Of a DNA stretch of 64,000 nt, positions 1,212 through 16,821 are shown one piece after another; the stretch's first letter is position 1, and each line of letters begins with the position of its first letter. The notes beneath the pieces are model-generated. The model was not told the DNA's origin, did not search any database, and saw only the letters and a list, made by a program, of their open reading frames with translations. The position numbers and the translations under genes are program-made. The stretch spans positions 3,810-67,809 of the forward strand of contig JAYZJO010000065.1 in assembly GCA_036164375.1 (NCBI GenBank), in the 5' to 3' direction. Origin of the DNA: Chlamydiota bacterium (lineage in GTDB: Bacteria; Chlamydiota; Chlamydiia; Chlamydiales; Criblamydiaceae).

Positions 1212-4085
1212 ATGTTACATATGAATAAGAACGCAGATTCTCGCAGATTAACTGCAACTCCAAAAGAATTTTTAAACACTTTCTTACCTCCATCCTTACT
1301 CATTTCTTTTTGCACTTTTGCCAGCATTACAGCAACTCCATTGCAAGTTGTAGCAATGAGTCCTTGTGAAGAGGAAATCCAACACGCAAAAAGAATCACA
1401 GAGCTATGGAAAGAGCAAGAAACAGACCTTGTCATTTCACAAATCGAATCACTTATCAAGAATTATCCCAACAGTGTTTTCAAAGAAAGTTTGCTCGTGA
1501 TTCTTGGAAACAGTCATTGGGTAAATAAAAATTATCAAGAAGCACTAGTTGTTTACAATCAAATCCAGAGTCCTGAATTTCAAGAACGCATCCTCAAGAA
1601 CAAGCTAGATGCCCTCATTAATACCGGGAACTATTCCCAAGCAATTAATGAACTTACCAGGCATGTTCCGCCTGAAGGGATAGCCCCCTCAACAGAGAAA
1701 GAGGAAATTTACACATATTATTATGCAGAAGCGCTCATGCAGACAGCGAAAAATCACCCTACCGCTAAAAAACGTGTAGAAATGTTTGAAGCTGCAGAAA
1801 ATCGATTTATTAGTTTATTTAATGGTACCTATGACATTAATGCCAGAGAAGGAACTGCAGCATTAGCGGCATACAGAGGGGATGCAGCCAAAGCAAGCGA
1901 AATTTATTACGAATTAGCAAAAAAATATCCAGACCAGAAACAAGTGCTCCTTTATAAAGGAGCAAAAATGTTAGCAAAGGTCGATCCTGAAGAAGCGTTA
2001 TTAACGCTTTCAGAAGCACAAAAGCTAAAGGGCCCTCATCAAAGTGAGCTAACTCTTCATAAAGCGCAACTAATGTATAACTTAGGCTATTATTCTCACG
2101 TCATTGAAGAATTTATCGATATGCGTGAAGCCCTTTCAGCTAAACATCTCCCTTTACTCACCTATTACGTTGGAAAAAGTCTCTACCAACAAAAACAGTA
2201 TCAAAAGTCCTTAGCAACTTTAGAGCCTCTCGCAAGAAATAATTTTTTGTATTTATCTGAAGATCAAACAAGGCAAGATGTTTATACTCATATCATCGCT
2301 TGCAGTTATCAACTCGACGATATAACAAGAGGCGACTACTGGTTAATTCAGTATGAAGAACGCTATCCTAACGACAATCAATTTGCTAAGGCTCTTTACC
2401 ATAAAGCTCACAGCCTAGTTAAACATGATCAATCCGAAGAAGCTCTTACGGTATTGGAAAAAATTGTATGGAAATATCCTAATTTTTCACTTATCGATAG
2501 AGTAAAACACCAACGCAATATGATTCAATTATCCCTAGAACAGTGGGAGGTTGCCCGCTCAAATTTTATATCCTACACGAAAACATATCCGGAAAGTCAA
2601 TTTACACCAATTGTCACAAAAAAAATCCCCTATTGCACACAAAAAATGATTCAAAAAGCGAAAAATCACGGGGAAGAAACAAAAGATCTATACCGCCTCC
2701 TACTTGATGATTTGAAATTGATATCTGACGATTCAAAAGTTGTCACAAAAAAAAGTAAACCTTTACTTGTACTTGCTGAATGCGAAGCTCTTTGTGAACT
2801 AGGGATGCACCGCAAAGCATTGCCTAAATTAACACTATTTACAAAAGCCTTTTCAAAACATCCCGAAGTCTACCGAGCCCACCTAATGCTCGCTCAATGC
2901 TTTTTAGAAGGTTTGAAGGATAATAGTAAATTTATTTTCCATGCTGAAGTTGCCATAGGCCTTAATAACAAAGCTGCCAATAATGGGGCTCTCCATTTAA
3001 AACTATTTAATGCCTATATTCGAGAACTTCAAAAAAATCCTTCTATAGAAATAGAGCAAAAACTTGCTAAATTAACACGGGCAACTGATCATTTAAAACA
3101 GGCTTTTCAAATATATCCCGAAGGTATCTCTATAGAAAATAGACTTTGGCTGGCAAATCAACTCATCAACAATTTGGAAAGAGAACAGATCGATTATGAA
3201 TTTGTTTCTTTAACAAAAAAAGAAGAAATCGAAGCGGTTTCAATCGCTATTGCTGCTTTTGAGACGTTATATGAATTTAACTACCTTCCTGAGCTAAAAC
3301 CTAAATATGTTAATAAATACAAACCCACTATTAACGACTATTTTCTAATGGGAAAATTATATGGTTGGATTGGTCAATCTGACAAAACAATAAGAGCATT
3401 AAATCATTATAAATTAAATATGTCTAACAGAAAAAATGACGCCAAATATGCCGAAACGCTATACATTTTAGGTCAGGTCTACGAACAAAACAATAATCAT
3501 GAAAAAGCTCTTTCTAATTACCAAGAGCTTCTTTCTGTCAAAAAAATCTCACCAAAGCTGGAGTTTGCAGCTAAACTACACCAAGCGAAGATCCAACTAC
3601 AAGATATCCCCATCTCTCAAAGAACTGCAGACAATAAAGCGGCTGCAGGACTCCTCAATGATCTTAAAAGATTACAGGTCCATAAAAACATTAAAACCGA
3701 ACCTATTCATCTAGAAGCAGCCATCGAACGCTCGTTATTTGAATCGCGATTCAGCACAGATGAAAAACAACAAATAACTCTACTTAAACTTCTTAAAGAG
3801 ACAAAAAAAGACTTTATCGGCATGGACAATATTAGTGCCAAGGATTACCACACAAGTAGAAAAAAAATTCCAAAAAAAGCAAAAATTTACCAAACATATA
3901 TGATGTTTCTTGACGGCTATATTTCTCACTTGGAATCTAAACTCGCGACATCACGAAAAGAAGTTAAATGGAAAAAAGAAGCTGCGAAAAGTATTTTCGA
4001 AAATATTATTAAATCTGATGATGGAAATACCTCCTACATCACAAAACATGTAAATGAAGCGTTACAATCCTTAAATAACGAATGA
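1212..4085 (+). CDS. Large TPR-repeat protein with an N-terminal hydrophobic/signal-like segment
   Basis: 957-aa ORF. Helical 34-aa-like repeats recur (e.g. NYQEALVVYNQI, NYSQAINEL, QYQKSLATLEPL, NHEKALSNYQELL). A hydrophobic stretch FLPPSLLISFCTFASITA lies near the N-terminus. Its stop is 10 nt before the next gene. Confidence 0.6.
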   Translation: MLHMNKNADSRRLTATPKEFLNTFLPPSLLISFCTFASITATPLQVVAMSPCEEEIQHAKRITELWKEQETDLVISQIESLIKNYPNSVFKESLLVILGNSHWVNKNYQEALVVYNQIQSPEFQERILKNKLDALINTGNYSQAINELTRHVPPEGIAPSTEKEEIYTYYYAEALMQTAKNHPTAKKRVEMFEAAENRFISLFNGTYDINAREGTAALAAYRGDAAKASEIYYELAKKYPDQKQVLLYKGAKMLAKVDPEEALLTLSEAQKLKGPHQSELTLHKAQLMYNLGYYSHVIEEFIDMREALSAKHLPLLTYYVGKSLYQQKQYQKSLATLEPLARNNFLYLSEDQTRQDVYTHIIACSYQLDDITRGDYWLIQYEERYPNDNQFAKALYHKAHSLVKHDQSEEALTVLEKIVWKYPNFSLIDRVKHQRNMIQLSLEQWEVARSNFISYTKTYPESQFTPIVTKKIPYCTQKMIQKAKNHGEETKDLYRLLLDDLKLISDDSKVVTKKSKPLLVLAECEALCELGMHRKALPKLTLFTKAFSKHPEVYRAHLMLAQCFLEGLKDNSKFIFHAEVAIGLNNKAANNGALHLKLFNAYIRELQKNPSIEIEQKLAKLTRATDHLKQAFQIYPEGISIENRLWLANQLINNLEREQIDYEFVSLTKKEEIEAVSIAIAAFETLYEFNYLPELKPKYVNKYKPTINDYFLMGKLYGWIGQSDKTIRALNHYKLNMSNRKNDAKYAETLYILGQVYEQNNNHEKALSNYQELLSVKKISPKLEFAAKLHQAKIQLQDIPISQRTADNKAAAGLLNDLKRLQVHKNIKTEPIHLEAAIERSLFESRFSTDEKQQITLLKLLKETKKDFIGMDNISAKDYHTSRKKIPKKAKIYQTYMMFLDGYISHLESKLATSRKEVKWKKEAAKSIFENIIKSDDGNTSYITKHVNEALQSLNNE

Positions 4086-8680: not shown

Positions 8681-9013
8681 TTAGTCACCAAAAAGTGAAT
8701 TAAAACGATCTTCAGGTCCTTTTTTATCTTTTACACTATCTTCTTCTGTTTCACCAAATAATTTTTTCGCAACGTCAGTAGCATTTATATTTTTCTCTTT
8801 AATTTCTTCGGTAGGTAAAAACTCTTCGCAGTAGTTAAAATTTTCTCTATCTCGTATGGGATCTGTATTAGGAACCATGCAACTGTTAGGTAATCCTGGT
8901 TTATAAAAACGACACCCGACGCAACAGTGGAGATAACTATCGCACTCTTGACATACAGCCCTAAATCCTACTTTTTTCTCTAGCAGGTTAGCCCCACATT
9001 TCCAACATTTCAT
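8681..9013 (-). CDS. Small Cys-rich zinc-ribbon-like protein with an acidic tail
   Basis: 110 aa. CxxC pairs occur at CWKCG...CQECD...CCVGC...C...C, followed by an E/D/K-rich C-terminus. Function is unknown. Confidence 0.5.
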   Translation of the reverse strand: MKCWKCGANLLEKKVGFRAVCQECDSYLHCCVGCRFYKPGLPNSCMVPNTDPIRDRENFNYCEEFLPTEEIKEKNINATDVAKKLFGETEEDSVKDKKGPEDRFNSLFGD

Positions 9014-9091: not shown

Positions 9092-10258
9092 TCAGCATCC
9101 CATTTCATTTTTTCCATGGAGAACTCTATGATGATAGGTGATTTTCATTTTTACATTACTAGAAGGGAAGTAATCAACTTGTTCTCCCTCAAACTCGTCA
9201 TTATCGTAATGGTACTCTTTCTTTAACACTTCACCAGGATACCACTCCAATAATTCACCTTGGTACTCTCCTTCAACAAGATTGTATTCCGCTCTTTTAT
9301 TTCCTTCACTATCAAATTCTACAATTGGTTCTTTCAATTTACCTAACGAATCATAATTTGCAACGAGAGCATCTCCGCCATTTTCATGCTTACGATAATG
9401 TCTTCCCACTGGGGTTCCCTTAATATATCGTCCCTCGCCTTCAATGATCTCATTTTGAAAATAAAACGATTCTACGCCATTTTTATTTCCGAAAAAATAT
9501 GTGACACAATAACTCACAGTCCCATCGTCATAAAATTTCCTATGTAAACCATGAGCAAGACCATTGAGGTAATGTTTCTCTTCTTGAACTGTTTTATTAG
9601 AATAATATTGGATTGAAGCTGGACTATCATTATCGTCGTGCAACAAGCCGTTAACATAGTTATATTTAGCTTTTAACGTCCCATCTTCATTCCACTCTTC
9701 TTGTATGCCAAAAGGGTGATTTAAAACATAGGTAGCTCGTTCCTTTAACCTCCCATTTTGGTAAAACTGTTCAGCAAGCCCCTGCTTTAATCCATTTTCA
9801 TAATGTATCCTCGAACGAAGTACGCCATCGGAATAGTATTGTTTAGTTGGGCCTCGTAAAAGCCCTTTGTCATACATATAAATGCAATCAATAGATCCTG
9901 AAGAGGTAAACGATATGCAAGGGCCATGTGGCTGAATACGCTCCCCCGTTTCTTTAACAATAGGATCATTTTCGTCCAACAAGATAAGGTCTGTTTCGTA
10001 TGTCAACGCGCCACTGCAGTCATATTCCATTTTTTTTACGGGAATTTTTTGATCATTTGCACGTTCTGATTTATAGAAAATAACAACTTTAGGGGCACCA
10101 CTAGCATATTCTTCAGAAACTGTGAGTTCCCAATCTCCTTGCCGAGAATTTAATTTTATTAAATCTCTAATGCTAGGTAAATCTTTTGATGGCCGACAAC
10201 TAGCTGACGAACTAAAAACGATGAAGATGAAAAAAGACATCAATGTTAATGACTTCAT
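9092..10258 (-). CDS. MORN-repeat-variant (YwqK-like) repeat protein, secreted; 3' end apparently frameshifted
   Basis: 388 aa with a signal peptide (MKSLTLMSFFIFIVFSSSASC). It has many repeats of the Y-x-nG-x-l-x-G type (YYSDGVLRSRIHYENGLKQGLAEQFYQNGRLKE...). The repeat pattern continues in another frame beyond the stop (see findings). Confidence 0.7.
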   Translation of the reverse strand: MKSLTLMSFFIFIVFSSSASCRPSKDLPSIRDLIKLNSRQGDWELTVSEEYASGAPKVVIFYKSERANDQKIPVKKMEYDCSGALTYETDLILLDENDPIVKETGERIQPHGPCISFTSSGSIDCIYMYDKGLLRGPTKQYYSDGVLRSRIHYENGLKQGLAEQFYQNGRLKERATYVLNHPFGIQEEWNEDGTLKAKYNYVNGLLHDDNDSPASIQYYSNKTVQEEKHYLNGLAHGLHRKFYDDGTVSYCVTYFFGNKNGVESFYFQNEIIEGEGRYIKGTPVGRHYRKHENGGDALVANYDSLGKLKEPIVEFDSEGNKRAEYNLVEGEYQGELLEWYPGEVLKKEYHYDNDEFEGEQVDYFPSSNVKMKITYHHRVLHGKNEMGC

Positions 10259-10469: not shown

Positions 10470-12119
10470 TTGTTAAGTAAAAATTTATTTTTTTATTTTT
10501 TTTTGTTTATTACTAACGGCTTTAGATGCTTCGGATCAACCTCTTTGCTAGAGTCGATGACTATAGAGGAAAAGGTTGGTCAAATCCTTATGGTACATTT
10601 CCACGGGGAACAAGCAAATAACGACGCAAAAATACTTATCTCACAAGCTCATGTCGGTGGTTTTATCTACTTTAACTGGTCTAACGGATTAAACACTCCT
10701 CAACAAGTGCAGAATCTCAGTAATGAATTGCAAGAAATCGCCAATCGAAATTTAAATCCTATCCCTCTTCTTATCGCTGTCGACCAAGAAGGAGGTGTAG
10801 TAGCTCGCCTCAAACAAGGTTTCACTGTATTTCCTGGTAATAGTGCAATTGCAAGGACAAATATCCCTTCTTTTGCTGAAAAATGTGCCTATGCTACATC
10901 AATTGAATTAAAAGCTGTTGGAATAAATATGATTCTTGGACCAGTTGTCGATGTGAATGTCAACCCTCTTAATCCTATAATAGGCGTTCGTTCATTTAGT
11001 AACTCACCAGAAACAGTCACTATCTTTGCAAAAGAAGCCTTAAAAGGTTATGAAAGAGCACGTATAATATCTGTCCTCAAACACTTTCCTGGCCATGGAG
11101 ATGTAACTCTTGACTCTCATGCAGATCTTCCGATTGTTGACAAATCCTTAAAAAAACTCAATGAAACAGAACTTTATCCATTTGCTTCTTTATCTAAATA
11201 TGCTAATGCCATAATGACAGCACATTTATTAGTTCCTGCGCTCGATCCTTTTCGCTGTGCAACCCTTTCAAAATACATTATTGAAAATATTCTTCGAAAA
11301 AATTTCAATTACAATGGAGTTGTTATCACAGACTCTTTGGTAATGAAAGGATTTTTGACTAACTGTCCAAATATAGAAGAGGCTGCCATCAGAGCATTTG
11401 AAGCTGGAAGTGATCTATTAATTTTAGGGGGAAAACAACTTCTCGATGAAGATCGATTTGAACTGACTACAAAAGATACGCTTCGTATATACCATCATCT
11501 TTTAGAAGCTGTATACTCAGGACGCATTTCAGAACAAAGACTCAATGCCTCAGTAAATAGAATATTATCTATGAAACAAAAATATAACCTATTTAATTAC
11601 TCTCCTTCAAAAAGCCAAGATATTGAAAGTAACATAAACACGGATTCACACAAAAAACTCGCAAGAGAAATTGCAAATCTTTCCCTAAACAACGATGCAA
11701 ACAACTGCACTCACCCTCAAAAATTTAATGAAATGCGCGTAGCCGTCTTTGCTCCGAAACTCACAGAATACGAAATTAATCACACAAATATCTCTAGAAT
11801 CGGTAAAGAAACAAAAACTATGTTCTTTGAACAACTTAACCCAACTGAAATAGAGTGCGCTATAGCACATAAACTTGTTAATTGGGCAGAAACAATTATC
11901 GTCTGCACCTACAATGCATGGAAAAATGATCGGCAAGTACAATTTATTAAATCGCTTAAAACACTAAACAAACCTATAACGATCATTGCATTGCGCGATC
12001 CACAAGACGGTAAAGTTTTACAAAATGATGTAAATTTTGTGATTTCTACTTTAAGTCCCGATTCATATTCCATACAATCAGCCATCGATATACTAACTGG
12101 AGTAACAAATGCTTTTTAA
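10470..12119 (+). CDS. Glycoside hydrolase family 3 beta-N-acetylhexosaminidase (NagZ-like), with signal peptide
   Basis: 549 aa with a TTG start in the track. GH3 N-terminal domain motifs are present: VGQILMVHF, IAVDQEGGVVARL, GINMILGPVVDV, KHFPGHGDVTLDSH, VITDSLVM. Confidence 0.8.
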   Translation: MLSKNLFFYFFLFITNGFRCFGSTSLLESMTIEEKVGQILMVHFHGEQANNDAKILISQAHVGGFIYFNWSNGLNTPQQVQNLSNELQEIANRNLNPIPLLIAVDQEGGVVARLKQGFTVFPGNSAIARTNIPSFAEKCAYATSIELKAVGINMILGPVVDVNVNPLNPIIGVRSFSNSPETVTIFAKEALKGYERARIISVLKHFPGHGDVTLDSHADLPIVDKSLKKLNETELYPFASLSKYANAIMTAHLLVPALDPFRCATLSKYIIENILRKNFNYNGVVITDSLVMKGFLTNCPNIEEAAIRAFEAGSDLLILGGKQLLDEDRFELTTKDTLRIYHHLLEAVYSGRISEQRLNASVNRILSMKQKYNLFNYSPSKSQDIESNINTDSHKKLAREIANLSLNNDANNCTHPQKFNEMRVAVFAPKLTEYEINHTNISRIGKETKTMFFEQLNPTEIECAIAHKLVNWAETIIVCTYNAWKNDRQVQFIKSLKTLNKPITIIALRDPQDGKVLQNDVNFVISTLSPDSYSIQSAIDILTGVTNAF

Positions 12120-12897
12120 ATTTTTATTACTTACACTTTCTGGGATTTTTCTTTTACAAGAAGCTCACTCAATCACCATCCCACAAGAAACAGCAAAAAA
12201 GATTGGGCTAAAAATATGGTACAACGAATGTGCTGGGACTCTTTCAGGTTTAAGCACATGGAACGATGGCGAAGAATTTGCTTCAATGGGAATAGGTCAT
12301 TTTATTTGGTACCCCAAAGGAAAAGCCGGTCTTTATAAAGAACAATTTCCAAGCCTCCTTAAGTTTCTAGAAGATAATCAAGTTACGCTACCTAAATGGC
12401 TAAATACGAATAAAGAGTGCCCATGGAAAAACAGAGAGGATTTTTTACAAGATACAGAAAGAGAAAAACTTGTAGAACTGCGCACTCTCCTTGTCTCTAC
12501 GGTAGATTTACAGGTTGTATTTATGACACAAAGGCTTGAGCAAGCACTTCCAAAAATGCTCAAGTCTGTTTCTGAAGAAAAAAAAACTCATATCAAGAGA
12601 CAATTTTACCGCGTATCAGAAAATCCCAATGGATTATACGCTCTTTTAGATTACATAAACTTCAAAGGAGAAGGGGCTTCTGAAAAAGAACGCTACAATA
12701 ATCAAGGTTGGGGGCTTCTTCAAGTATTGGAACAGATGCCTATTCATTCAAAAAGTAGTGCCATAGAGGATTTTATTAATTCAGCAAAAACCGTTCTAGC
12801 ACGTCGGGTTGCTAACTCGCCACAAGAACGTGGAGAAAAACGCTGGCTAAAAGGTTGGTTTAATAGATTAAACTCTTATAAAAATAAAAATTCGTAA
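12109..12897 (+). CDS. Secreted hypothetical protein, translationally linked to the GH3 gene
   Basis: 262 aa with signal peptide MLFKFLLLTLSGIFLLQEAHS. It overlaps the upstream GH3 gene by 11 nt. I can name no domain. Confidence 0.45.
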   Translation: MLFKFLLLTLSGIFLLQEAHSITIPQETAKKIGLKIWYNECAGTLSGLSTWNDGEEFASMGIGHFIWYPKGKAGLYKEQFPSLLKFLEDNQVTLPKWLNTNKECPWKNREDFLQDTEREKLVELRTLLVSTVDLQVVFMTQRLEQALPKMLKSVSEEKKTHIKRQFYRVSENPNGLYALLDYINFKGEGASEKERYNNQGWGLLQVLEQMPIHSKSSAIEDFINSAKTVLARRVANSPQERGEKRWLKGWFNRLNSYKNKNS

Positions 12898-13080
12898 ATT
12901 TCAATAAACTAAACCATCAAAAGATAGTAAAGAATTTAAAAGAAAAAAAAAGCAAATTTTATTGCATTATCTTCATTGATCTGATACATGTAAACGAAGA
13001 GAGGGTTACTAACACAGATACAATAATTTCAGTAGCACTTTCAAGGAAGAAAGAACTTAATCCAGGGAAAGGAGTAAGCT

Positions 13081-13647
13081 ATGAAAAAAATTGATCTTAA
13101 AAAACTGGCTGTGATGGGTATTGCAAGCGGTGCGCTTCTCGCATCTCAGTCAGGAGAAGCAGTAAATTACACTCAGTCATCAGGCCAAGGCACTTACCTC
13201 GCAGGAGGTCAAGGTTGCGGAGGATCCAGTGGCTGTGGTGGAAAAAGTCACGGAAGTGATATGAACAACAGAGCTAATGGCAATGGTAATGGTTCATACG
13301 ACTATAATAATGGAAGTAGAACCAACGACAGCGCTAATGGCACAAACTACTACGAAAATAAAGACAACAGCAACAGCGGAAGTCACTGTGGTGGAAAAAG
13401 CAGTTGCGGTGGAAAAAAAGGAAACATGGATGACAAAGACTCTATGAATGATACTGATCATATGAATGATCAGGATCAAAAAATGGATTCCCAGTCTCTT
13501 CCAAGACCTTCTTATCCAGAATCTTACTCTAGCCAATCTCGTTCAGAACACTTCTCACCACGCACAATCAAACACAACGATAACCCTAGTAAAGCGATGA
13601 ACAACTCATCGTATAATAATACTACGAGAAATCGTTACTATCGTTAA
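13081..13647 (+). CDS. Candidate RiPP precursor: Sec-signal, low-complexity N/G/S/D-rich protein with two CGG-x3-CGGK modules
   Basis: 188 aa. A strong SD (aaaggag) lies 7 nt upstream. The signal peptide is MKKIDLKKLAVMGIASGALLASQSGEA. There are only four Cys, in GQGCGGSSGCGGKSHG (C46, C52) and GSHCGGKSSCGGKKG (C103, C109). It sits immediately upstream of the DUF692/DUF2063 genes. Confidence 0.55.
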   Translation: MKKIDLKKLAVMGIASGALLASQSGEAVNYTQSSGQGTYLAGGQGCGGSSGCGGKSHGSDMNNRANGNGNGSYDYNNGSRTNDSANGTNYYENKDNSNSGSHCGGKSSCGGKKGNMDDKDSMNDTDHMNDQDQKMDSQSLPRPSYPESYSSQSRSEHFSPRTIKHNDNPSKAMNNSSYNNTTRNRYYR

Positions 13648-13654
13648 TATTTTT

Positions 13655-13680
13655 CAACAGAGTCCGAAAGGACTCTGTTG
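13655..13680 (+). terminator. Perfect 11-bp stem / GAAA-loop hairpin just after the precursor stop (terminator or attenuator)
   Basis: caacagagtcc-gaaa-ggactctgttg starts 8 nt after the TAA. There is no clean U-run, so it may be a partial terminator or a stability element. Confidence 0.5.
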
Positions 13681-13839
13681 ACCTATCATTTATCTTTCCT
13701 TCCTAACGAACAGCAAAGAACTATACTGATTATTTAACGAAAACCTTGCTGCTGGATTTGGACACAAACCGAATTTAAATTAACTTGACACTCGAGACTC
13801 TTTTTGAAACATTAGAATTAATCACCAAATTGAGGGCAT

Positions 13840-14721
13840 ATGACAGAAAAAAACCTACCTAATTTAGGCATCGGCATAGGGCTACGCCCCATTCATTATG
13901 AAGCCATTTTTAATAATGAACCTGATATCGACTGGTTTGAAATCATCAGCGAAAATTTTATGGTAGATGGAGGAAAGCCACTATACAACCTAAATAAAAT
14001 CCTCGAAAGATATCCGGTCGTTCAACATGGCGTTTCTCTAGCTATTGGTAGCCCCGATCCTCTCGATTTTGACTATTTAAAGAAATTAAAAGCCCTTACT
14101 AAAATAACCAAAACTCCTTGGGTATCAGATCATTTATGCTGGGGCCACCGTCCTGGATCCCACTACCACGACCTTTTACCTCTTCCCTACACGAAAGAAG
14201 TCATCAAATATGTCGTCGAAAGGGCGCGTATCGTACAAGATTATTTAGAACTCCCTTTTGCACTCGAAAATTTATCCTCATATGTCGGTTTTAAAGCCGA
14301 TGAAATGCCCGAATGGGAATTCTATGGAACAATAGTCGAAGAAGCTAACATTTCAATGATGCTCGATATCAACAACATCTATGTTTCAAGTAGAAATCAT
14401 GGATTCGACCCAAATGACTATATCACCAATATTCCCATTAACCGCGTTATTCAAATCCACCTAGCCGGTCATAGTGATTATGGTAAATATGTTCTTGATA
14501 CCCACGATAACCATGTCTGCGACGAAGTATGGCAGCTCTACGCTGAAATTTATCCAAAAACCGGGGGAGTGTCGACTTTGCTCGAATGGGACGACAATTT
14601 TATTAGCTTCGAAGACACGTGGAAAGAAGCCCTGAAAGCAAAACAATTTCAGGAAAATATTGAATCTAAAATTGATAAGAAGATTCATCTCAACAAACCA
14701 AAAAAAACTGTGAGTCAATGA
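13840..14721 (+). CDS. DUF692-family multinuclear non-haem iron oxidase (MNIO; MbnB/HvfB/BufB-like)
   Basis: 293 aa. Family hallmarks are LGIGIGLRPIHYEAIF...IDWFEIISENFMVDGGKPL...YPVVQHGVSLAIGS...PWVSDHLCW...FALENLSSY...LDINNIYVS...IQIHLAGH...LDTHD. Confidence 0.85.
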   Translation: MTEKNLPNLGIGIGLRPIHYEAIFNNEPDIDWFEIISENFMVDGGKPLYNLNKILERYPVVQHGVSLAIGSPDPLDFDYLKKLKALTKITKTPWVSDHLCWGHRPGSHYHDLLPLPYTKEVIKYVVERARIVQDYLELPFALENLSSYVGFKADEMPEWEFYGTIVEEANISMMLDINNIYVSSRNHGFDPNDYITNIPINRVIQIHLAGHSDYGKYVLDTHDNHVCDEVWQLYAEIYPKTGGVSTLLEWDDNFISFEDTWKEALKAKQFQENIESKIDKKIHLNKPKKTVSQ

Positions 14722-15596
14722 ACAAATACGACGAAAAAGTTCCACAATCTCTAAAAAATCTTCAAGACTGGTTTGCTAGTATCATAACTATGCCTATTGA
14801 TGACGACAGTCAAATGAACGCTATATCTCCTTTTGGAACCCCAATGACAAACGAAGCTGCCAAATACATCACCCCTAGCCCCACATTAACACCCGAAAAA
14901 AGAATTCAACTCTACAACCAGCAATATTGGTGGAGGCTTCTCGCAACCTTACACGAAAATTTTCCGACCGCAACTAGCCTTCTTGGTTATCATAATTTTA
15001 ACGATTGGATTGCTGTCCCCTTCTTAAAAGATAACCCACCAGACAATTGGTCACTAAGCTTGCTCGGAGCCAAACTACCGTTGTGGGTACAGGAAAATTA
15101 TCGTAAAGAAGACCGATTGCTAATACTAGAAACAATCTCTATTGACTGGGCTTATGTCTACAGTTTTTATGCGAGTCAATTGCCTACGTTACAAATTACT
15201 GAAGATGGTGATGTTTCTTTTACAAAACTACACCTTCAACCACACTTACAATTATTCACATTACACCACAACCTGCTTCCTTTTAGAGAAAAAATTCTCC
15301 AAAAAAATCCTGAATATTGGTCTACTCATGATATTCCTCCGTTAGAGTGTAAAAACAAATACAGCTTTGTAATTTATCGCAACCATGAGTATAATGTAGG
15401 CTGGTTACAAATTGATAATTATGAATATTCCCTTCTCTCCCAATTTACTAAAGGCCTCACTATTGAGGAGGCATGCCATTGGATAGAAACAAGGGATCTA
15501 GAAACAAAAAAAACCGCTACCCACAATTTGAAAGACTGGTTTCAAAAATGGACAACATGCGGTTGGCTCGGAATAAAAAATGAAAAAACAAAATAA
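14718..15596 (+). CDS. DUF2063-family protein (HvfC/BufC/MbnC-type MNIO partner)
   Basis: 292 aa. Its start overlaps the DUF692 stop by 4 nt (ATGA). The N-terminal pattern matches DUF2063: LKNLQDWFASII...RIQLYNQQYWWRLLATLHENFPTATSLLGYHNFNDWIAVPFLKDNPP. Confidence 0.7.
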   Translation: MNKYDEKVPQSLKNLQDWFASIITMPIDDDSQMNAISPFGTPMTNEAAKYITPSPTLTPEKRIQLYNQQYWWRLLATLHENFPTATSLLGYHNFNDWIAVPFLKDNPPDNWSLSLLGAKLPLWVQENYRKEDRLLILETISIDWAYVYSFYASQLPTLQITEDGDVSFTKLHLQPHLQLFTLHHNLLPFREKILQKNPEYWSTHDIPPLECKNKYSFVIYRNHEYNVGWLQIDNYEYSLLSQFTKGLTIEEACHWIETRDLETKKTATHNLKDWFQKWTTCGWLGIKNEKTK

Positions 15597-16821
15597 AAAA
15601 ATATCCTGCCGAGAAGCAGCTTATCTAGCATACCTCAACTCTCAAAGAGCTGAATCTTTTATTAGCGACTCTCTAATACAGTGGAAAAATTCTACGGAAG
15701 TCCTTGAAAAAGATTATCGTCTCGCACAAGAAATTGCATTTGGAACCTGCAGAATGGCTGCTGCATTAGAATTTTATGCAAAACAACTTACCGATAAAAA
15801 ATTAACTCTTAAAAGAAAAGAGCGCTGTCTTCTCCACACAGCACTATATCAATTTTTTTTCTTAGATAAAATACCTCTATATGCCATTACAAATGAAAGC
15901 ATCTCAATCTCAAAAAAATACTGTCATAACACTTTCACTAAATTTTTAAATGCTGTTCTTCGTAAACTTCCTTCTACTAAATTAACGCTCCCTTCTAACG
16001 ATTCCATAAACTCTTTAGCAATCAGAAATTCTTACCCTACGTTTTTTGTGGAACAACTTATCAAAAGCTATGGGTTAGAACAAGCAAAAGATATATTACA
16101 CTCAGGTAACCTTCCTGGAAAAGTTTTAGCAAGAGTACGCTGCAAAGAACCAACCCTCGAAAAATTTGAAAATAACCAAGTTAATATGGTTCATGTTGAA
16201 AATTCTATAGACCTCCACAAAATAGCCAATACTCCAGACTATTATATTCAAAATATCACTCCTGTTTTACTCCTTAATACTCTAGCACAAAACTTAAATC
16301 CCCCCTCTTCAATCCTAGACCTCTGTTCGTCACCCGGAGGCAAACTTATTGCCTGCCACGATCTATACCCAAATAGTAAGCTGTTTGCGAATGATATATC
16401 CCCACATAAACTCGAAATACTCAAAAAAAATCTACACACATATTCGATAAAAGCAACAGTCACAGAAGGGCCTGGACAAGACTACTCGACTCATGAAAAA
16501 TTTGATTTAATCATTCTTGATGTCCCCTGTTCAAACTCTGGCGTTCTCAATAAACGTCCTGAAGCGCGGTGGCGACTAAGTACAGAAAGCTTAAAAGATC
16601 TCAATACAACACAAGTAAAACTTCTCAACAAAGCCAAAGACCTCCTTAGCGAAAAAGGTGAAATATGGTTTATGACCTGTAGTATCCTTCCCGAAGAAAA
16701 TGAAAAACTCATCGAAACTTTTGCAAAGGAAAACCAATTCAACATACGTACATCAAAGATGATTCTACCAAGTAGCGACGGTTACGATGGAGGATTTGCC
16801 TGCGCTCTCTCGCGTTCTTAG
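15580..16821 (+). CDS. rsmB: 16S rRNA (cytosine967-C5)-methyltransferase RsmB/Sun
   Basis: 413 aa. A NusB-like N-terminal domain is followed by a methyltransferase core with DLCSSPGGK, ILDVPCSNSGV and a TCS motif (FMTCSILPEENE). Confidence 0.8.
   Translation: MKKQNKKISCREAAYLAYLNSQRAESFISDSLIQWKNSTEVLEKDYRLAQEIAFGTCRMAAALEFYAKQLTDKKLTLKRKERCLLHTALYQFFFLDKIPLYAITNESISISKKYCHNTFTKFLNAVLRKLPSTKLTLPSNDSINSLAIRNSYPTFFVEQLIKSYGLEQAKDILHSGNLPGKVLARVRCKEPTLEKFENNQVNMVHVENSIDLHKIANTPDYYIQNITPVLLLNTLAQNLNPPSSILDLCSSPGGKLIACHDLYPNSKLFANDISPHKLEILKKNLHTYSIKATVTEGPGQDYSTHEKFDLIILDVPCSNSGVLNKRPEARWRLSTESLKDLNTTQVKLLNKAKDLLSEKGEIWFMTCSILPEENEKLIETFAKENQFNIRTSKMILPSSDGYDGGFACALSRS

What the first reader, a model, noticed from the sequence alone, without database searches (positions are those of the whole stretch)
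13081..13680. Atypical precursor: long low-complexity N/G/S/D/H-rich body, two C-x5-C modules, strong SD and a post-stop hairpin
The signal peptide is MKKIDLKKLAVMGIASGALLASQSGEA. After it, the protein is almost free of hydrophobic residues and is dominated by N, G, S and D. His, Asp and Met cluster around the Cys modules (KSHGSDMNN; GSHCGG; DSMNDTDHMNDQDQKMD), which are plausible additional metal ligands. The two Cys modules are 57 residues apart, and each reads CGG-x3-CGGK. The C-terminal 60 aa (PRPSYPESYSSQSRSEHFSPRTIKHNDNPSKAMNNSSYNNTTRNRYYR) have no Cys.

The gene has the best Shine-Dalgarno in the neighbourhood (AAAGGAG). It is followed by a perfect 11-bp GAAA-loop hairpin, then a 159-bp gap before the DUF692 gene. 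That gap contains a perfect TTGACA hexamer at 13785-13790. This layout is the classic RiPP arrangement, with the precursor expressed in excess over its modifying enzymes.
Basis: seen in the sequence. Interest (0 to 1): 0.65.

Follow-up and report, generated by a model that had tools for sequence, protein, structure and literature searches.

The report
Chlamydial disordered copper-peptide precursor gene
This is a real gene from an environmental chlamydia that most likely encodes a secreted, floppy protein whose cysteine pairs are turned by the two enzymes next door into copper-binding rings; the chemistry is known, but this family of precursors has not been described.

Summary
ORF 13081-13647 (188 aa) has a Sec-type signal peptide and a mature part that is 53% N/G/S/D. 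Its four Cys lie in two CGG-x3-CGGK modules. It has an AAAGGAG ribosome-binding site and a 12-bp GAAA-loop hairpin after the stop.

Downstream lie a BufB-type MNIO (above NCBIfam's curated cut-off) and a DUF2063 partner. This pair installs 5-thiooxazoles in bufferins/captophorins.

The precursor matches no known precursor profile (DUF2282, BufA2, HvfA). It belongs to an undescribed family from environmental chlamydiae:
- A conserved signal peptide is followed by "YLAG-x-G-C-x(2-8)-C-GG".
- The tail is hypervariable and of low complexity.
- The two Cys are the only invariant columns in 26 aligned N-termini, and 17 of 18 database homologues keep them.
- At least seven other loci have BufBC but no 6-Cys domain nearby.

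Post-stop hairpins follow 45% of precursor genes in relatives, against 8% of control genes.

Close relatives carry a second, BufA2-like precursor between this gene and bufB. The window has none, and no remnant of one.

The TTGACA hexamer has no matching -10 element. Modification and copper binding are inferred, not shown.

Verdict: a new variant of a known kind, of moderate interest.

The parts
13068..13074 (+). Shine-Dalgarno AAAGGAG, 6 nt upstream of the ATG
   Evidence: Read directly from the sequence.
13081..13647 (+). Precursor gene, 188 aa including the signal peptide. It belongs to the chlamydial 'SP + YLAG + Cys-pair + low-complexity tail' family.
   Evidence: ORF list. It scores 70 bits against a local N-terminal HMM; the window's own N-terminus is among the 26 sequences that HMM was built from, so that score is partly by construction. 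Exhaustive phmmer gives 18 non-self homologues, all matching the N-terminal part only. dN is 0.24 with saturated dS against L001. There is no Pfam or NCBIfam hit.
13081..13161 (+). Predicted Sec signal peptide (residues 1-27, MKKIDLKKLAVMGIASGALLASQSGEA). Cleavage after G-E-A is inferred.
   Evidence: The family consensus is MKKxDLKKLALxGxAxG. The aligned relatives end in A-x-A-type sites. The -3/-1 rule was applied by eye. There is no RR motif and no lipobox Cys. No SignalP run was possible.
13192..13245 (+). Conserved N-proximal module TYLAGGQGCGGSSGCGGK (residues 38-55; Cys46 and Cys52). It is the proposed primary BufBC target and recognition stretch.
   Evidence: C46 and C52 are the only invariant columns, and A41 is at least 90% conserved, in alignment A1 of 26 N-termini. 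The pair is kept in 17/18 exhaustive-search hits.
13384..13419 (+). Second module HCGGKSSCGGKK (residues 102-113; Cys103 and Cys109). It is probably an internal duplicate of module 1.
   Evidence: Direct-repeat family D1 covers 13216-13246 and 13387-13417 at 71% identity. Second modules also occur in L001, L019, L046, L047, L058, P0017 and P0023.
13426..13488 (+). Met/His/Asp-rich stretch MDDKDSMNDTDHMNDQDQKMD (residues 116-136). It contains an 18-nt tandem duplication. It may supply auxiliary metal ligands (speculative).
   Evidence: Tandem repeat at 13443-13478, period 18, 2 copies. The stretch is not conserved in L001 or L081.
13654..13681 (+). Post-stop hairpin: 12-bp perfect stem, GAAA loop, weak T tail. 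It is a putative partial terminator or mRNA 3'-stabiliser between the precursor and bufBC.
   Evidence: Hairpins follow 33/74 precursor stops in relatives (z < -3) against 12/150 control stops. Hairpins also follow the distal precursor in L081, L083, L084 and L087.
13840..14721 (+). bufB: a multinuclear non-haem iron oxidative enzyme (MNIO, DUF692) of the bufferin type
   Evidence: NF050167 MNIO_BufB scores 325 bits against a cut-off of 310. PF05114 gives E = 5e-104. PDB 3bww gives E = 5e-51. It carries the EWDD motif.
14718..15596 (+). bufC: the DUF2063 / PME-type-1 partner protein (its RRE-like C-terminal domain is weakly detected). It overlaps bufB by 4 nt.
   Evidence: PF09836 gives E = 2.5e-11. 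PF22106 NGO1945_C gives E = 6e-4, below the gathering score. NF050145 HvfC gives E = 4e-5, below the cut-off. It co-occurs with BufB in 67 of 80 loci.

Best explanation
The ORF is a genuine gene of an uncultured environmental chlamydia (Parachlamydiales-like). It encodes the substrate protein of the adjacent BufB (MNIO) / BufC (DUF2063) pair.

Proposed pathway (all steps inferred unless marked):
1. The 188-aa pre-protein is made in excess over the enzymes. It has a strong SD, and a stable hairpin directly after the stop attenuates read-through into bufBC or protects the precursor mRNA's 3' end.
2. In the cytoplasm, BufC docks the unfolded precursor. The docking site is probably the conserved hydrophobic 'T-Y-L-A-G' stretch just before the first Cys pair. 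In BufA1 and HvfA the signal peptide itself is dispensable for modification.
3. BufB uses its iron cofactor and O2 to convert the Cys of each CGG-x3-CGG module into 5-thiooxazoles, losing 4 Da per Cys. This is the chemistry shown for bufferins, fontiphorin, and the revised oxazolin.
4. The modified protein is exported by Sec and cleaved after G-E-A27.
5. In the periplasm, each pair of thiooxazoles forms one high-affinity Cu site, giving two sites per molecule. The nearby His/Met/Asp residues may assist.
6. This would buffer copper for a bacterium that lives inside amoebal vacuoles.

The N/G/S/D-rich body is an intrinsically disordered, fast-evolving spacer or solubility tail, not a folded domain.

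What is shown: the gene, its family, its linkage to BufBC, the Cys conservation and the hairpin. What is inferred by homology of the enzymes: modification, export, Cu binding and attenuation.
For: Enzymes
- The MNIO passes the curated BufB equivalog cut-off (325 vs 310 bits). Its partner is DUF2063, with 4-nt overlapping reading frames.

Family
- BufB-centred loci from about 60 Chlamydiota MAGs carry 1-3 signal-peptide ORFs upstream.
- Many of them share MKKxDLKKLALxG...[YFLM]LA[GA]xxC-x(2-8)-C(GG) at residues 40-60.
- In alignment A1 the two Cys are the only invariant columns.
- An exhaustive search of 1.84 billion representatives finds 18 homologues. All match through the N-terminal part only, and 17 of them keep the Cys pair.

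Linkage seen from the precursor side
- P0023 and P0018 lie directly upstream of MNIO + DUF2063.

Independence from BufA2-like domains
- At least 7 other loci (L026, L027, L028, L035, L039, L042, L063) keep BufBC although no linked precursor has a 6-Cys domain.
- In those loci the N-proximal pairs, and any scattered Cys in the tails, are the only Cys available.

Chemistry precedent
- MNIO + PME1 pairs broadly install 5-thiooxazoles.
- FonBC needs two Cys motifs in tandem and a small residue after Cys (PMC13097082).
- The window's Cys come in pairs, and each is followed by Gly-Gly.

Export precedent
- Bufferin and oxazolin precursors use Sec signal peptides that are dispensable for modification (PMC11626156; PMC11252979).

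Hairpin
- z = -5.7.
- Hairpins follow 45% of precursor stops against 8% of control stops in the same loci.
- The L081 and L001 hairpins share the CAGAGT/ACTCTG core with the window's.

Disorder
- Composition. AF2 gives mean pLDDT 46.8 and no secondary structure.

Ecology
- Bufferins slow killing by Dictyostelium (PMC11626156).
Against: - No experiment was done and none exists for any member. Modification, export and copper binding are all inferred.
- The window's BufB, like almost all the chlamydial ones, has EWDD at the position where Lys-Cys/Cys-Gly-type MNIOs have D-F. PMC13097082 links the Asp to a Lys right after the Cys (BufA2-type CK motifs). Here Lys sits at +3, not +1.
- Close relatives (L001, L081, L083, L084, L087) have a BufA2-like 6-Cys precursor between this gene and bufB. 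That could be the real substrate, with the distal gene merely co-located.
- Some chlamydial bufBC loci have no upstream precursor at all (L004, L009, L011, L029, L043, L045).
- One family member is stand-alone, far from any MNIO (L085).
- One homologue has lost the Cys pair (P0009).
- The hairpin's U-tract is weak, so termination efficiency is unknown.
- The precursor matches none of the published precursor profiles.
- Only 64 kb of the genome is visible, so a BufA2-type gene could lie elsewhere.
Confidence: 0.62

Rival explanations
1. The ORF encodes a secreted or periplasmic low-complexity protein that BufBC does not modify. Its Cys pairs form disulfides or bind metal directly as thiols, helped by His/Met/Asp. 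The true BufBC substrate in this lineage is the BufA2-like 6-Cys protein, which this genome has lost from the locus or encodes elsewhere.
For: - The chlamydial BufBs carry the EWDD (Cys-Lys/BufA2-type) specificity signature whatever the neighbouring precursor type (PMC13097082).
- The nearest relatives all have a BufA2-like gene directly upstream of bufB.
- HvfA's own N-terminal C-x4-C pair is a disulfide, not a modification site (PMC11252979).
- A stand-alone family member exists away from any MNIO (L085).
Against: - The distal genes are tightly and repeatedly linked to bufBC in the same orientation.
- The Cys pair is the only invariant feature in otherwise hypervariable proteins.
- At least 7 other loci retain BufBC with no 6-Cys domain nearby.
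- In several of them the C-terminal BufA2-like domain persists but has lost all its Cys, while the N-proximal pair is kept (L010 distal, L014 distal, L026, L027, L028, L035, L042).
- Many proximal BufA2-like proteins also carry the same N-proximal module, for example L001 3486-3974, L033 3320-3928 and P0002.
- The published landscape found no Buf2 genome-wide in Protochlamydia amoebophila, although MNIO and DUF2063 are present (PMC12452194 Table S2).
Confidence: 0.22
2. The locus is decaying. After deletion of the proximal BufA2-like precursor, the distal ORF is a drifting remnant on its way to becoming a pseudogene, and its low-complexity body reflects slippage rather than function.
For: - The proximal precursor is absent, and tblastn finds no remnant of it.
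- The tail shows recent short duplications.
- The tails are unalignable between relatives.
- One homologue has lost its Cys (P0009).
Against: - The ORF is intact, with a strong SD.
- bufB and bufC are intact, and bufB scores above the equivalog cut-off.
- The N-terminal region is under purifying selection: dN is 0.24 with saturated dS.
- An identical 188-aa protein with the same gene order was assembled independently from another sample (L082).
- Both Cys modules are retained in the window and in L001.
Confidence: 0.08
3. The ORF is not a gene. It is a chance open frame in a compositionally biased stretch.
For: - Low-complexity DNA leaves other frames open: 13294-13536 on the minus strand (80 aa) and 13277-13447 on the plus strand (56 aa).
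- There is no Pfam or NCBIfam hit.
Against: - The signal peptide and Cys module are conserved across dozens of genomes at the same position relative to bufB.
- dN is far below dS.
- The SD sits at the right distance.
- Gene callers in public assemblies call the same ORF.
Confidence: 0.02

Closest known systems
Bufferins / captophorins: the class of Sec-exported, Cys-derived 5-thiooxazole copper-binding RiPPs made by an MNIO plus a DUF2063 (PME-type 1) partner (Leprevost et al. PNAS 2024, PMC11626156; Gadgil et al. ACS Chem Biol 2026, PMC13097082)
   Same: - Same operon logic: precursor, then MNIO, then DUF2063.
- The MNIO passes the BufB equivalog cut-off.
- The precursor has a Sec-type signal peptide rather than a classical leader.
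- The conserved Cys are the obvious modification sites.
- The precursor is protein-sized.
   Different: - The mature part has no folded bufferin domain (neither DUF2282 nor Buf2). It is predicted to be disordered and of low complexity.
- There are only two Cys pairs.
- No DoxX gene, sigma/anti-sigma pair or copper gene lies in the operon; rsmB follows instead.
- The host is an obligate intracellular chlamydia.
HvfA / oxazolin and FonA / fontiphorin (Buf_EGKCG, 'Lys-Cys' precursors; NCBIfam NF050137 KCGExKCG_twice)
   Same: - Paired Cys-Gly motifs a few residues apart: KCGEGKCG there, GCGGSSGCGGK here.
- Gly-rich, probably unstructured context.
- FonBC needs two motifs in tandem and a small residue after Cys.
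- One relative's module (L033 GKCGAGKCGG) hits NF050137 at E = 0.01, just below the cut-off.
   Different: - The window protein does not hit NF050137 even at E <= 1.
- The spacing is C-x5-C, not C-x4-C.
- There is no Glu/Lys frame and no 17-residue repeat array.
- The enzyme has the Asp (BufA2-type) residue rather than the Phe (HvfB/FonB-type) specificity residue.
BufA2 (Buf_6/12Cys; NCBIfam NF050166)
   Same: - The enzyme type matches.
- In relatives, the same signal peptide and N-proximal Cys module are fused to a BufA2-like 6-Cys domain (P0002, L003, L005, L007, L033). These hit NF050166 at E = 1e-7 to 1e-9 but score below the cut-off.
   Different: - The window protein lacks the helical region and the 6-Cys CKG domain altogether.
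- It gives no NF050166 hit.
'CxxxxC' precursor family and the unclassified signal-peptide ORFs of the MNIO landscape paper (PMC12452194)
   Same: - Signal peptide plus a conserved short Cys-x(n)-Cys motif, next to MNIO/DUF2063.
- The paper explicitly expects 'hundreds' of further ungrouped precursors with 1-18 Cys.
   Different: - The CxxxxC BGCs usually include DoxX, and 54% include a Lactamase_B_2 gene. Neither is here.
- That profile is not available to test.
- The paper's Table S2 lists Protochlamydia and Waddlia as having MNIO + DUF2063 but zero recognised precursors.
TIGR04222 membrane proteins with Ser/Gly-rich, Cys-interspersed C-terminal tails (PMC12452194)
   Same: A low-complexity, unstructured, periplasm-facing Ser/Gly-rich region with a few Cys, genetically linked to MNIOs.
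   Different: - Those are multi-pass membrane proteins without a signal peptide, and they pair with PME-type 2 partners.
- This is a soluble signal-peptide protein with a PME-type 1 (DUF2063) partner.

Membership tests
Bufferin/captophorin class (MNIO + PME1-modified, Sec-exported Cys peptides) | An adjacent MNIO of the BufB/HvfB clade | tested here: met
   NF050167 scores 325 bits against a cut-off of 310. PF05114 gives E = 5e-104.
Bufferin/captophorin class (MNIO + PME1-modified, Sec-exported Cys peptides) | A DUF2063 / PME-type 1 partner encoded next to the MNIO | tested here: met
   PF09836 scores 44.1 bits against a gathering score of 27.2. The gene overlaps bufB by 4 nt. The HvfC equivalog model is hit only below its cut-off.
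Bufferin/captophorin class (MNIO + PME1-modified, Sec-exported Cys peptides) | [quoted passage not shown] | tested here: inconclusive
   The sequence features are classical: KK n-region, 15-residue hydrophobic core, G-E-A at -3/-1, no RR and no lipobox. They are conserved across the family. No signal-peptide predictor was available and there are no export data.
Bufferin/captophorin class (MNIO + PME1-modified, Sec-exported Cys peptides) | Conserved Cys residues that serve as modification sites | tested here: met
   C46 and C52 are invariant in 26/26 aligned N-termini and kept in 17/18 exhaustive-search hits. Conservation is shown; their role as modification sites is inferred.
Bufferin/captophorin class (MNIO + PME1-modified, Sec-exported Cys peptides) | Cys converted to 5-thiooxazole, and Cu(I)/Cu(II) binding by the product | not testable with these tools
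   This requires co-expression, MS, UV or NMR, and metal titration.
BufA1 (Pfam DUF2282, PF10048) | A match to the DUF2282 profile | tested here: not met
   There is no Pfam hit at E <= 1.
BufA2 (NCBIfam NF050166, Buf_6/12Cys) | A match to the BufA2 profile, i.e. a 6-Cys CKG domain | tested here: not met
   The window protein gives no hit at E <= 1. Relatives' proximal or fused domains hit at 27-37 bits, below the cut-off of 60.
HvfA/oxazolin (NCBIfam NF050137 KCGExKCG_twice; Buf_EGKCG) | Repeated (E)GKCG motifs matching the profile | tested here: not met
   The window protein gives no hit at E <= 1. The relative L033 2871-3233 scores 15.6 bits against a cut-off of 19.5.
Methanobactin (MbnA/MbnB/MbnC) | An MbnB-type MNIO and an MbnA-type leader/core peptide | tested here: not met
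   TIGR04159 MbnB scores 46 bits against a cut-off of 325. The precursor has a signal peptide, not an MbnA leader, and matches no methanobactin-precursor model at E <= 1 in NCBIfam.
'CxxxxC' family (PMC12452194) | A match to the authors' CxxxxC HMM; BGC with DoxX and often Lactamase_B_2 | not testable with these tools
   The profile is not public in the libraries available. The spacing here is C-x5-C, and the flanking genes scanned with Pfam and NCBIfam (12109-12897 upstream, rsmB 15580-16821 downstream) are neither DoxX nor Lactamase_B_2.

The most novel reading that the evidence does not exclude
In environmental chlamydiae, the conserved ~55-residue N-terminus (signal peptide + YLAG + Cys pair) is a portable cassette. 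It lets BufBC install a thiooxazole copper clasp on full-length, intrinsically disordered secreted proteins of 70-360 aa.

Their hypervariable tails (N/G/S-rich, Q/S/T/P-rich, D/E-rich or Met/His-rich) would then evolve rapidly under host-driven selection. They could act as periplasmic or inclusion-lumen metal sponges, or as host-interaction surfaces inside amoebae.

On this reading, MNIO chemistry acts here as a protein-tagging system on a diversifying family of disordered proteins, rather than as the maturase of one defined peptide. The post-stop hairpins would be a conserved device that sets the stoichiometry between several tandem precursors and one enzyme pair.
Probability: 0.15. Interest if true: 0.7.

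Novelty: new variant of a known kind. Interest (0 to 1): 0.45.

Why it matters
- It would give the 'orphan' chlamydial systems a substrate. Published genome-wide surveys list the MNIO/DUF2063 pairs of Protochlamydia and Waddlia with no recognised precursor.
- It would extend bufferin/captophorin chemistry to a disordered, low-complexity scaffold with a minimal two-Cys module. That is useful for defining the minimal recognition and modification unit of BufB-type enzymes.
- It would point to copper buffering as a conserved need of chlamydiae that live in amoebal vacuoles. The pathogenic Chlamydia genomes whose rows were seen in the same table (C. trachomatis among them) lack the system.
- A probable cultured source exists: the assembly GCA_900000175.1 carries P0023, a two-module member. 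I recall this assembly as Estrella lausannensis, but did not verify that. If correct, the prediction is directly testable.
- The recurrent post-stop hairpins offer a clean comparative case of precursor/enzyme stoichiometry control in RiPP operons.

Tried and rejected
1. Pfam and NCBIfam scans of the precursor at E <= 1 gave nothing meaningful; the only row was a TafF fimbrial model at E = 0.46.
2. The word-indexed homologue search with the full protein found only the protein itself plus P0002. With the N-terminal alignment it found only 5 proteins. The short profile pays a heavy E-value penalty in a database of 5.8 billion sequences. The exhaustive phmmer search was more useful.
3. I looked for a lost proximal BufA2-like gene. 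tblastn with the L001 and L006 proximal proteins, plus regex searches over all window ORFs, found no remnant in 13648-13839 or anywhere else in the 64 kb.
4. TTGACA at 13785 as an internal promoter: no -10 element lies at 16-18 nt, and TAGAAT lies 22 nt away. I rejected it as a recognisable sigma-70/66-type promoter. No + strand promoter-like site was found upstream of the precursor either, so the transcription start remains unknown.
5. DNA alignment of the post-stop intergenic region with L001 and L081 was essentially unalignable apart from the hairpin core.
6. My first regex classification of loci undercounted BufA2-like domains. I replaced it with local HMMs.
7. I checked whether BufB specificity residues differ between loci with and without 6-Cys precursors. 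They do not; almost all have EWDD.
8. An Rfam scan of 12700-14000 found no family. The only row was a chance snoRNA match at 19.7 bits against a gathering score of 40.
9. Single-sequence AF2 gave low confidence throughout. This is compatible with disorder but is weak evidence on its own.
10. Literature searches for DUF692 or bufferin together with chlamydia found only taxonomic tallies: 11 Parachlamydiales loci in PMC13097082 SI, and the Table S2 rows in PMC12452194. Neither analyses the precursors.
Full report
OBSERVATION

- ORF 13081-13647 (+, 188 aa) translates exactly as quoted.
- After a classical signal-peptide-like N-terminus (residues 1-27), the 161-residue remainder has only five V/L/I/F/W residues.
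- It is 53% N+G+S+D. N, G and S are each 2-3 times the level in the window's other long ORFs.
- The four Cys (46, 52, 103, 109) sit in two modules, CGG-SSG-CGGK and CGG-KSS-CGGK, 57 residues apart.
- At the DNA level the modules are in-register copies at 71% identity over 31 nt. The tail also contains an 18-nt tandem duplication and another 31-nt repeat. The body therefore grows by short duplications.
- AAAGGAG lies at 13068-13074, 6 nt before the ATG.
- The hairpin has 12 bp (13654-13665 / 13670-13681), a GAAA loop, dG -22.6 kcal/mol and z = -5.7. Its T-tail is poor.
- TTGACA at 13785-13790 exists but has no -10 partner at 16-18 nt. The promoter scan reports nothing on the + strand in the 192-nt gap.

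THE NEIGHBOURS

- 13840-14721 is an MNIO. It passes NCBIfam's curated cut-off for the bufferin maturase BufB (325 vs 310 bits), matches PF05114 at E = 5e-104, and matches the Histophilus DUF692 structure 3bww at E = 5e-51.
- 14718-15596 overlaps it by 4 nt and is a DUF2063 partner protein (PF09836, with weak NGO1945_C and HvfC hits).
- rsmB follows, overlapping bufC by 17 nt.
- The precursor itself matches no Pfam or NCBIfam model, including DUF2282 (BufA1), NF050166 (BufA2) and NF050137 (HvfA).

ORGANISM AND RELATIVES

A scan of GTDB species genomes with BufB returned 80 loci. The top ~63 (60-83% identity) are almost all Chlamydiota MAGs: Parachlamydiaceae, Waddliaceae, Rhabdochlamydiaceae and Protochlamydia. 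The window therefore comes from an uncultured environmental chlamydia.

Upstream of bufB these loci carry one to three same-strand ORFs with very similar signal peptides. Three building blocks recur.
- (a) An N-terminal cassette: MKKxDLKKLALxGxAxG, about 10-20 variable residues, then [YFLM]-L-A-[GA]-x-x-C-x(2-8)-C-(G-G), at residues 40-60.
- (b) A low-complexity middle of wildly different composition and length.
- (c) An optional C-terminal unit: a helical stretch (..TEAQLLSxLNxxGKxxYxxLxxEGKxLAxxLAS..), then a BufA2-like 6-Cys domain, then DKNLAVK.

In an alignment of 26 N-termini, the only invariant columns are the two Cys that correspond to C46 and C52 of the window protein. A41 and A10 are at least 90% conserved.

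Local HMMs for blocks (a) and (c) classify the ORFs.
- 'Window-type' proteins (cassette plus tail, no C-terminal unit) occur in 13 other loci. These include the closest relative L001 (83% BufB identity), whose protein also has two modules, GCGGASGCGG and GCGSKSGCGN.
- The C-terminal domains hit NF050166 (BufA2) at E = 1e-7 to 1e-9 but stay below the cut-off. This may be why a published genome-wide survey lists Waddlia with MNIO + DUF2063 but no precursor; for Protochlamydia the linked C-terminal domains have lost their Cys (PMC12452194 Table S2).

An exhaustive phmmer search of 1.84 billion cluster representatives found only 18 non-self hits at E <= 1e-3.
- Every hit aligns through the N-terminal 50-150 residues, always from residue 1.
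- 17 of the 18 keep the Cys pair. P0009 has lost it.
- The tails are unrelated: N/G/S-rich, Q/S/T/P-rich, strongly acidic or Met/His-rich.

Looked at from the precursor side:
- P0023 (NCBI assembly GCA_900000175.1) and P0018 lie upstream of a proximal BufA2-like gene, an MNIO and a DUF2063 gene.
- P0024 and P0017 are followed by a proximal precursor before their contigs end.
- P0019 is a stand-alone copy next to hc1.
- An identical copy of the window protein, with identical gene order, exists in an independent assembly.

WHAT DIFFERS IN THE WINDOW

The nearest relatives (L001, L081, L083, L084, L087) have this order: distal window-type precursor, hairpin, proximal BufA2-like precursor, bufB. 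The window has no proximal gene.
- Only 158 nt separate the hairpin from bufB.
- Neither tblastn nor motif searches find a remnant there or elsewhere in the 64 kb.

This is not unique. At least seven other chlamydial loci (L026 Protochlamydia, L027, L028, L035, L039, L042, L063) keep bufBC although no linked precursor has a 6-Cys domain. In several of them the C-terminal unit persists but has lost every Cys, while the N-proximal pair is retained. This is the strongest argument that the N-proximal pair is itself a BufBC target.

MECHANISM

Established knowledge from the literature:
- MNIO + DUF2063 (PME1) pairs convert Cys of Sec-signal-bearing precursors into 5-thiooxazoles that bind copper. 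This is shown for bufferins (PMC11626156), and for fontiphorin, gonophorin and the revised oxazolin (PMC13097082; bioRxiv 10.64898/2026.07.17.739211).
- The signal peptide is dispensable for modification in BufA1 and HvfA.
- FonBC modifies a substrate only if it carries two Cys motifs, and it strongly prefers a small residue after Cys.
- The window's Cys come in pairs, and each is followed by Gly-Gly.

From this I infer the following.
- Each CGG-x3-CGG module is a minimal double site, converted to two thiooxazoles in the cytoplasm.
- The protein is then exported by Sec and cleaved after G-E-A27.
- In the periplasm it offers two Cu sites.
- The conserved hydrophobic T-Y-L-A-G stretch is the best candidate for the element that BufC's RRE-like domain recognises.
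- The Met/His/Asp stretch after module 2 (residues 116-136) resembles Met/His copper motifs. It is not conserved in L001 or L081, so it is at most a lineage-specific auxiliary.
- The body is predicted to be disordered, from its composition and from AF2 (mean pLDDT 46.8, no secondary structure).

A caveat on specificity. By alignment to 3bww, the window BufB has G-L-R-P where HvfB-type enzymes have R-R, and E-W-D-D where they have E-R-D-F. Almost all the chlamydial BufBs have EWDD. PMC13097082 associates this Phe-to-Asp change with 'Cys-Lys' (BufA2-type) substrates. The enzyme is therefore tuned to CK motifs, and whether it also takes CGG(K) is untested. That keeps a real rival alive: the distal protein could be an unmodified, co-located secreted protein.

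THE HAIRPIN

Folding the 70 nt after the stop of 74 precursor ORFs in the relatives gave z < -3 in 33 cases (45%) and MFE <= -15 kcal/mol in 51 (69%). For 150 stops of long ORFs in the same loci the figures are 12 (8%) and 41 (27%).
- Many of these hairpins carry proper U-tracts.
- L081, L083, L084 and L087 also have 11-16-bp hairpins after the distal gene.
- The L081 and L001 hairpins share the CAGAGT/ACTCTG core with the window's.

A hairpin after each precursor gene is thus a family trait. It is consistent with attenuation or 3'-end stabilisation giving precursor excess. Its effect on transcription is not shown. Rfam recognises nothing here.

COMPARISON AND NOVELTY

The system works like a bufferin/captophorin operon and meets the class-level genomic criteria: BufB-clade MNIO, DUF2063 partner, signal-peptide precursor and conserved Cys.
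- The precursor is not a member of BufA1, BufA2 or HvfA. The profiles were tested and not met.
- The published 'CxxxxC' profile could not be tested.
- The literature I could search records chlamydial MNIO/PME1 loci only as counts. PMC13097082 SI lists 11 Parachlamydiales loci. PMC12452194 Table S2 lists zero recognised precursors. PMC12452194 also states that hundreds of ungrouped signal-peptide ORFs probably are new precursors.

I therefore rate this a new variant of a known kind. It is an undescribed, chlamydia-centred precursor family with a minimal conserved Cys-pair cassette on a disordered hypervariable body. The window is a case where it is the only linked precursor.

VERDICT

- Observation: confirmed.
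- Interpretation: supported in its core. Not supported for the internal promoter. Unproven for the auxiliary ligands.
- Interest: moderate (0.45).
- Confidence in the main mechanism: about 0.6.

Noticed in passing
window 14718-16821; loci L002-L069: The gene order bufB-bufC-rsmB is conserved in 22 chlamydial loci, including loci with no upstream precursor. In the window, rsmB starts 17 nt inside bufC. This suggests co-transcription of a 16S rRNA methyltransferase with a RiPP maturase pair.
   Followed up: partly
window 12109-12897 (+) and 10470-12119 (+): A 262-aa signal-peptide protein with no Pfam or NCBIfam hit lies directly upstream of the precursor and is syntenic in L001 (66% identity) and L081. 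The 549-aa ORF before it (10470-12119) is 65% identical to its L001 counterpart, and a gene with a precomputed Glyco_hydro_3 (PF00933) hit occupies the same position in L083; the window ORF itself was not scanned. Whether either gene is linked functionally to the buf locus is unknown.
   Followed up: partly
L085 4001-4798 (protein P0019): This is a stand-alone member of the precursor family (signal peptide + YLAGGSCGGHGGC + a 200-aa D/S/K-rich tail). It sits between hc1 (the chlamydial histone-like protein gene) and a tRNA U5-methyltransferase gene, with no MNIO within 4 kb.
   Followed up: no
proteins P0004-P0007; L018 1386-1643; L031 807-1022; L039 3696-3992: A short sub-family (70-100 aa) has the motif VIAKPSCKAHGGCGG followed by a strongly acidic D/E tail. 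It uses the same signal peptide but has a very different tail chemistry from the window protein.
   Followed up: no
protein P0009 (87 aa): This close homologue of the L001 and window N-terminus has YLAGDGYAGSGNS in place of the Cys pair. It may be a decayed copy or a Cys-less variant.
   Followed up: no
L010, L014, L026, L027, L028, L035, L042 (distal or proximal ORFs): These ORFs retain C-terminal BufA2-like units (helix + ...SYRDKNLAVKEAQRRM) in which all six Cys have been lost, while the N-proximal Cys pair persists. The domain seems to have a Cys-independent role.
   Followed up: partly
window 13654-13681; L081 2095-2129; L001 ~3455-3485: The post-stop hairpins of the three closest loci share a CAGAGT...ACTCTG core, although the surrounding intergenic DNA cannot be aligned. 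This hints that the hairpin is conserved by descent or is a small mobile palindromic element.
   Followed up: partly
window 8681-9013 (-) and 9092-10258 (-): There is a 110-aa Cys-rich ORF (CxxC...CxxC...CCxGC, zinc-ribbon-like). Next to it is a 388-aa signal-peptide protein made of repeats that look MORN-like by eye (YxNGxxxG...). Neither was examined.
   Followed up: no
L004, L009, L011, L029, L043, L045: These chlamydial bufB-bufC loci have an unrelated housekeeping gene immediately upstream and no precursor-like ORF within about 1.3 kb. Their precursors must be encoded elsewhere, or the enzymes are orphaned.
   Followed up: partly
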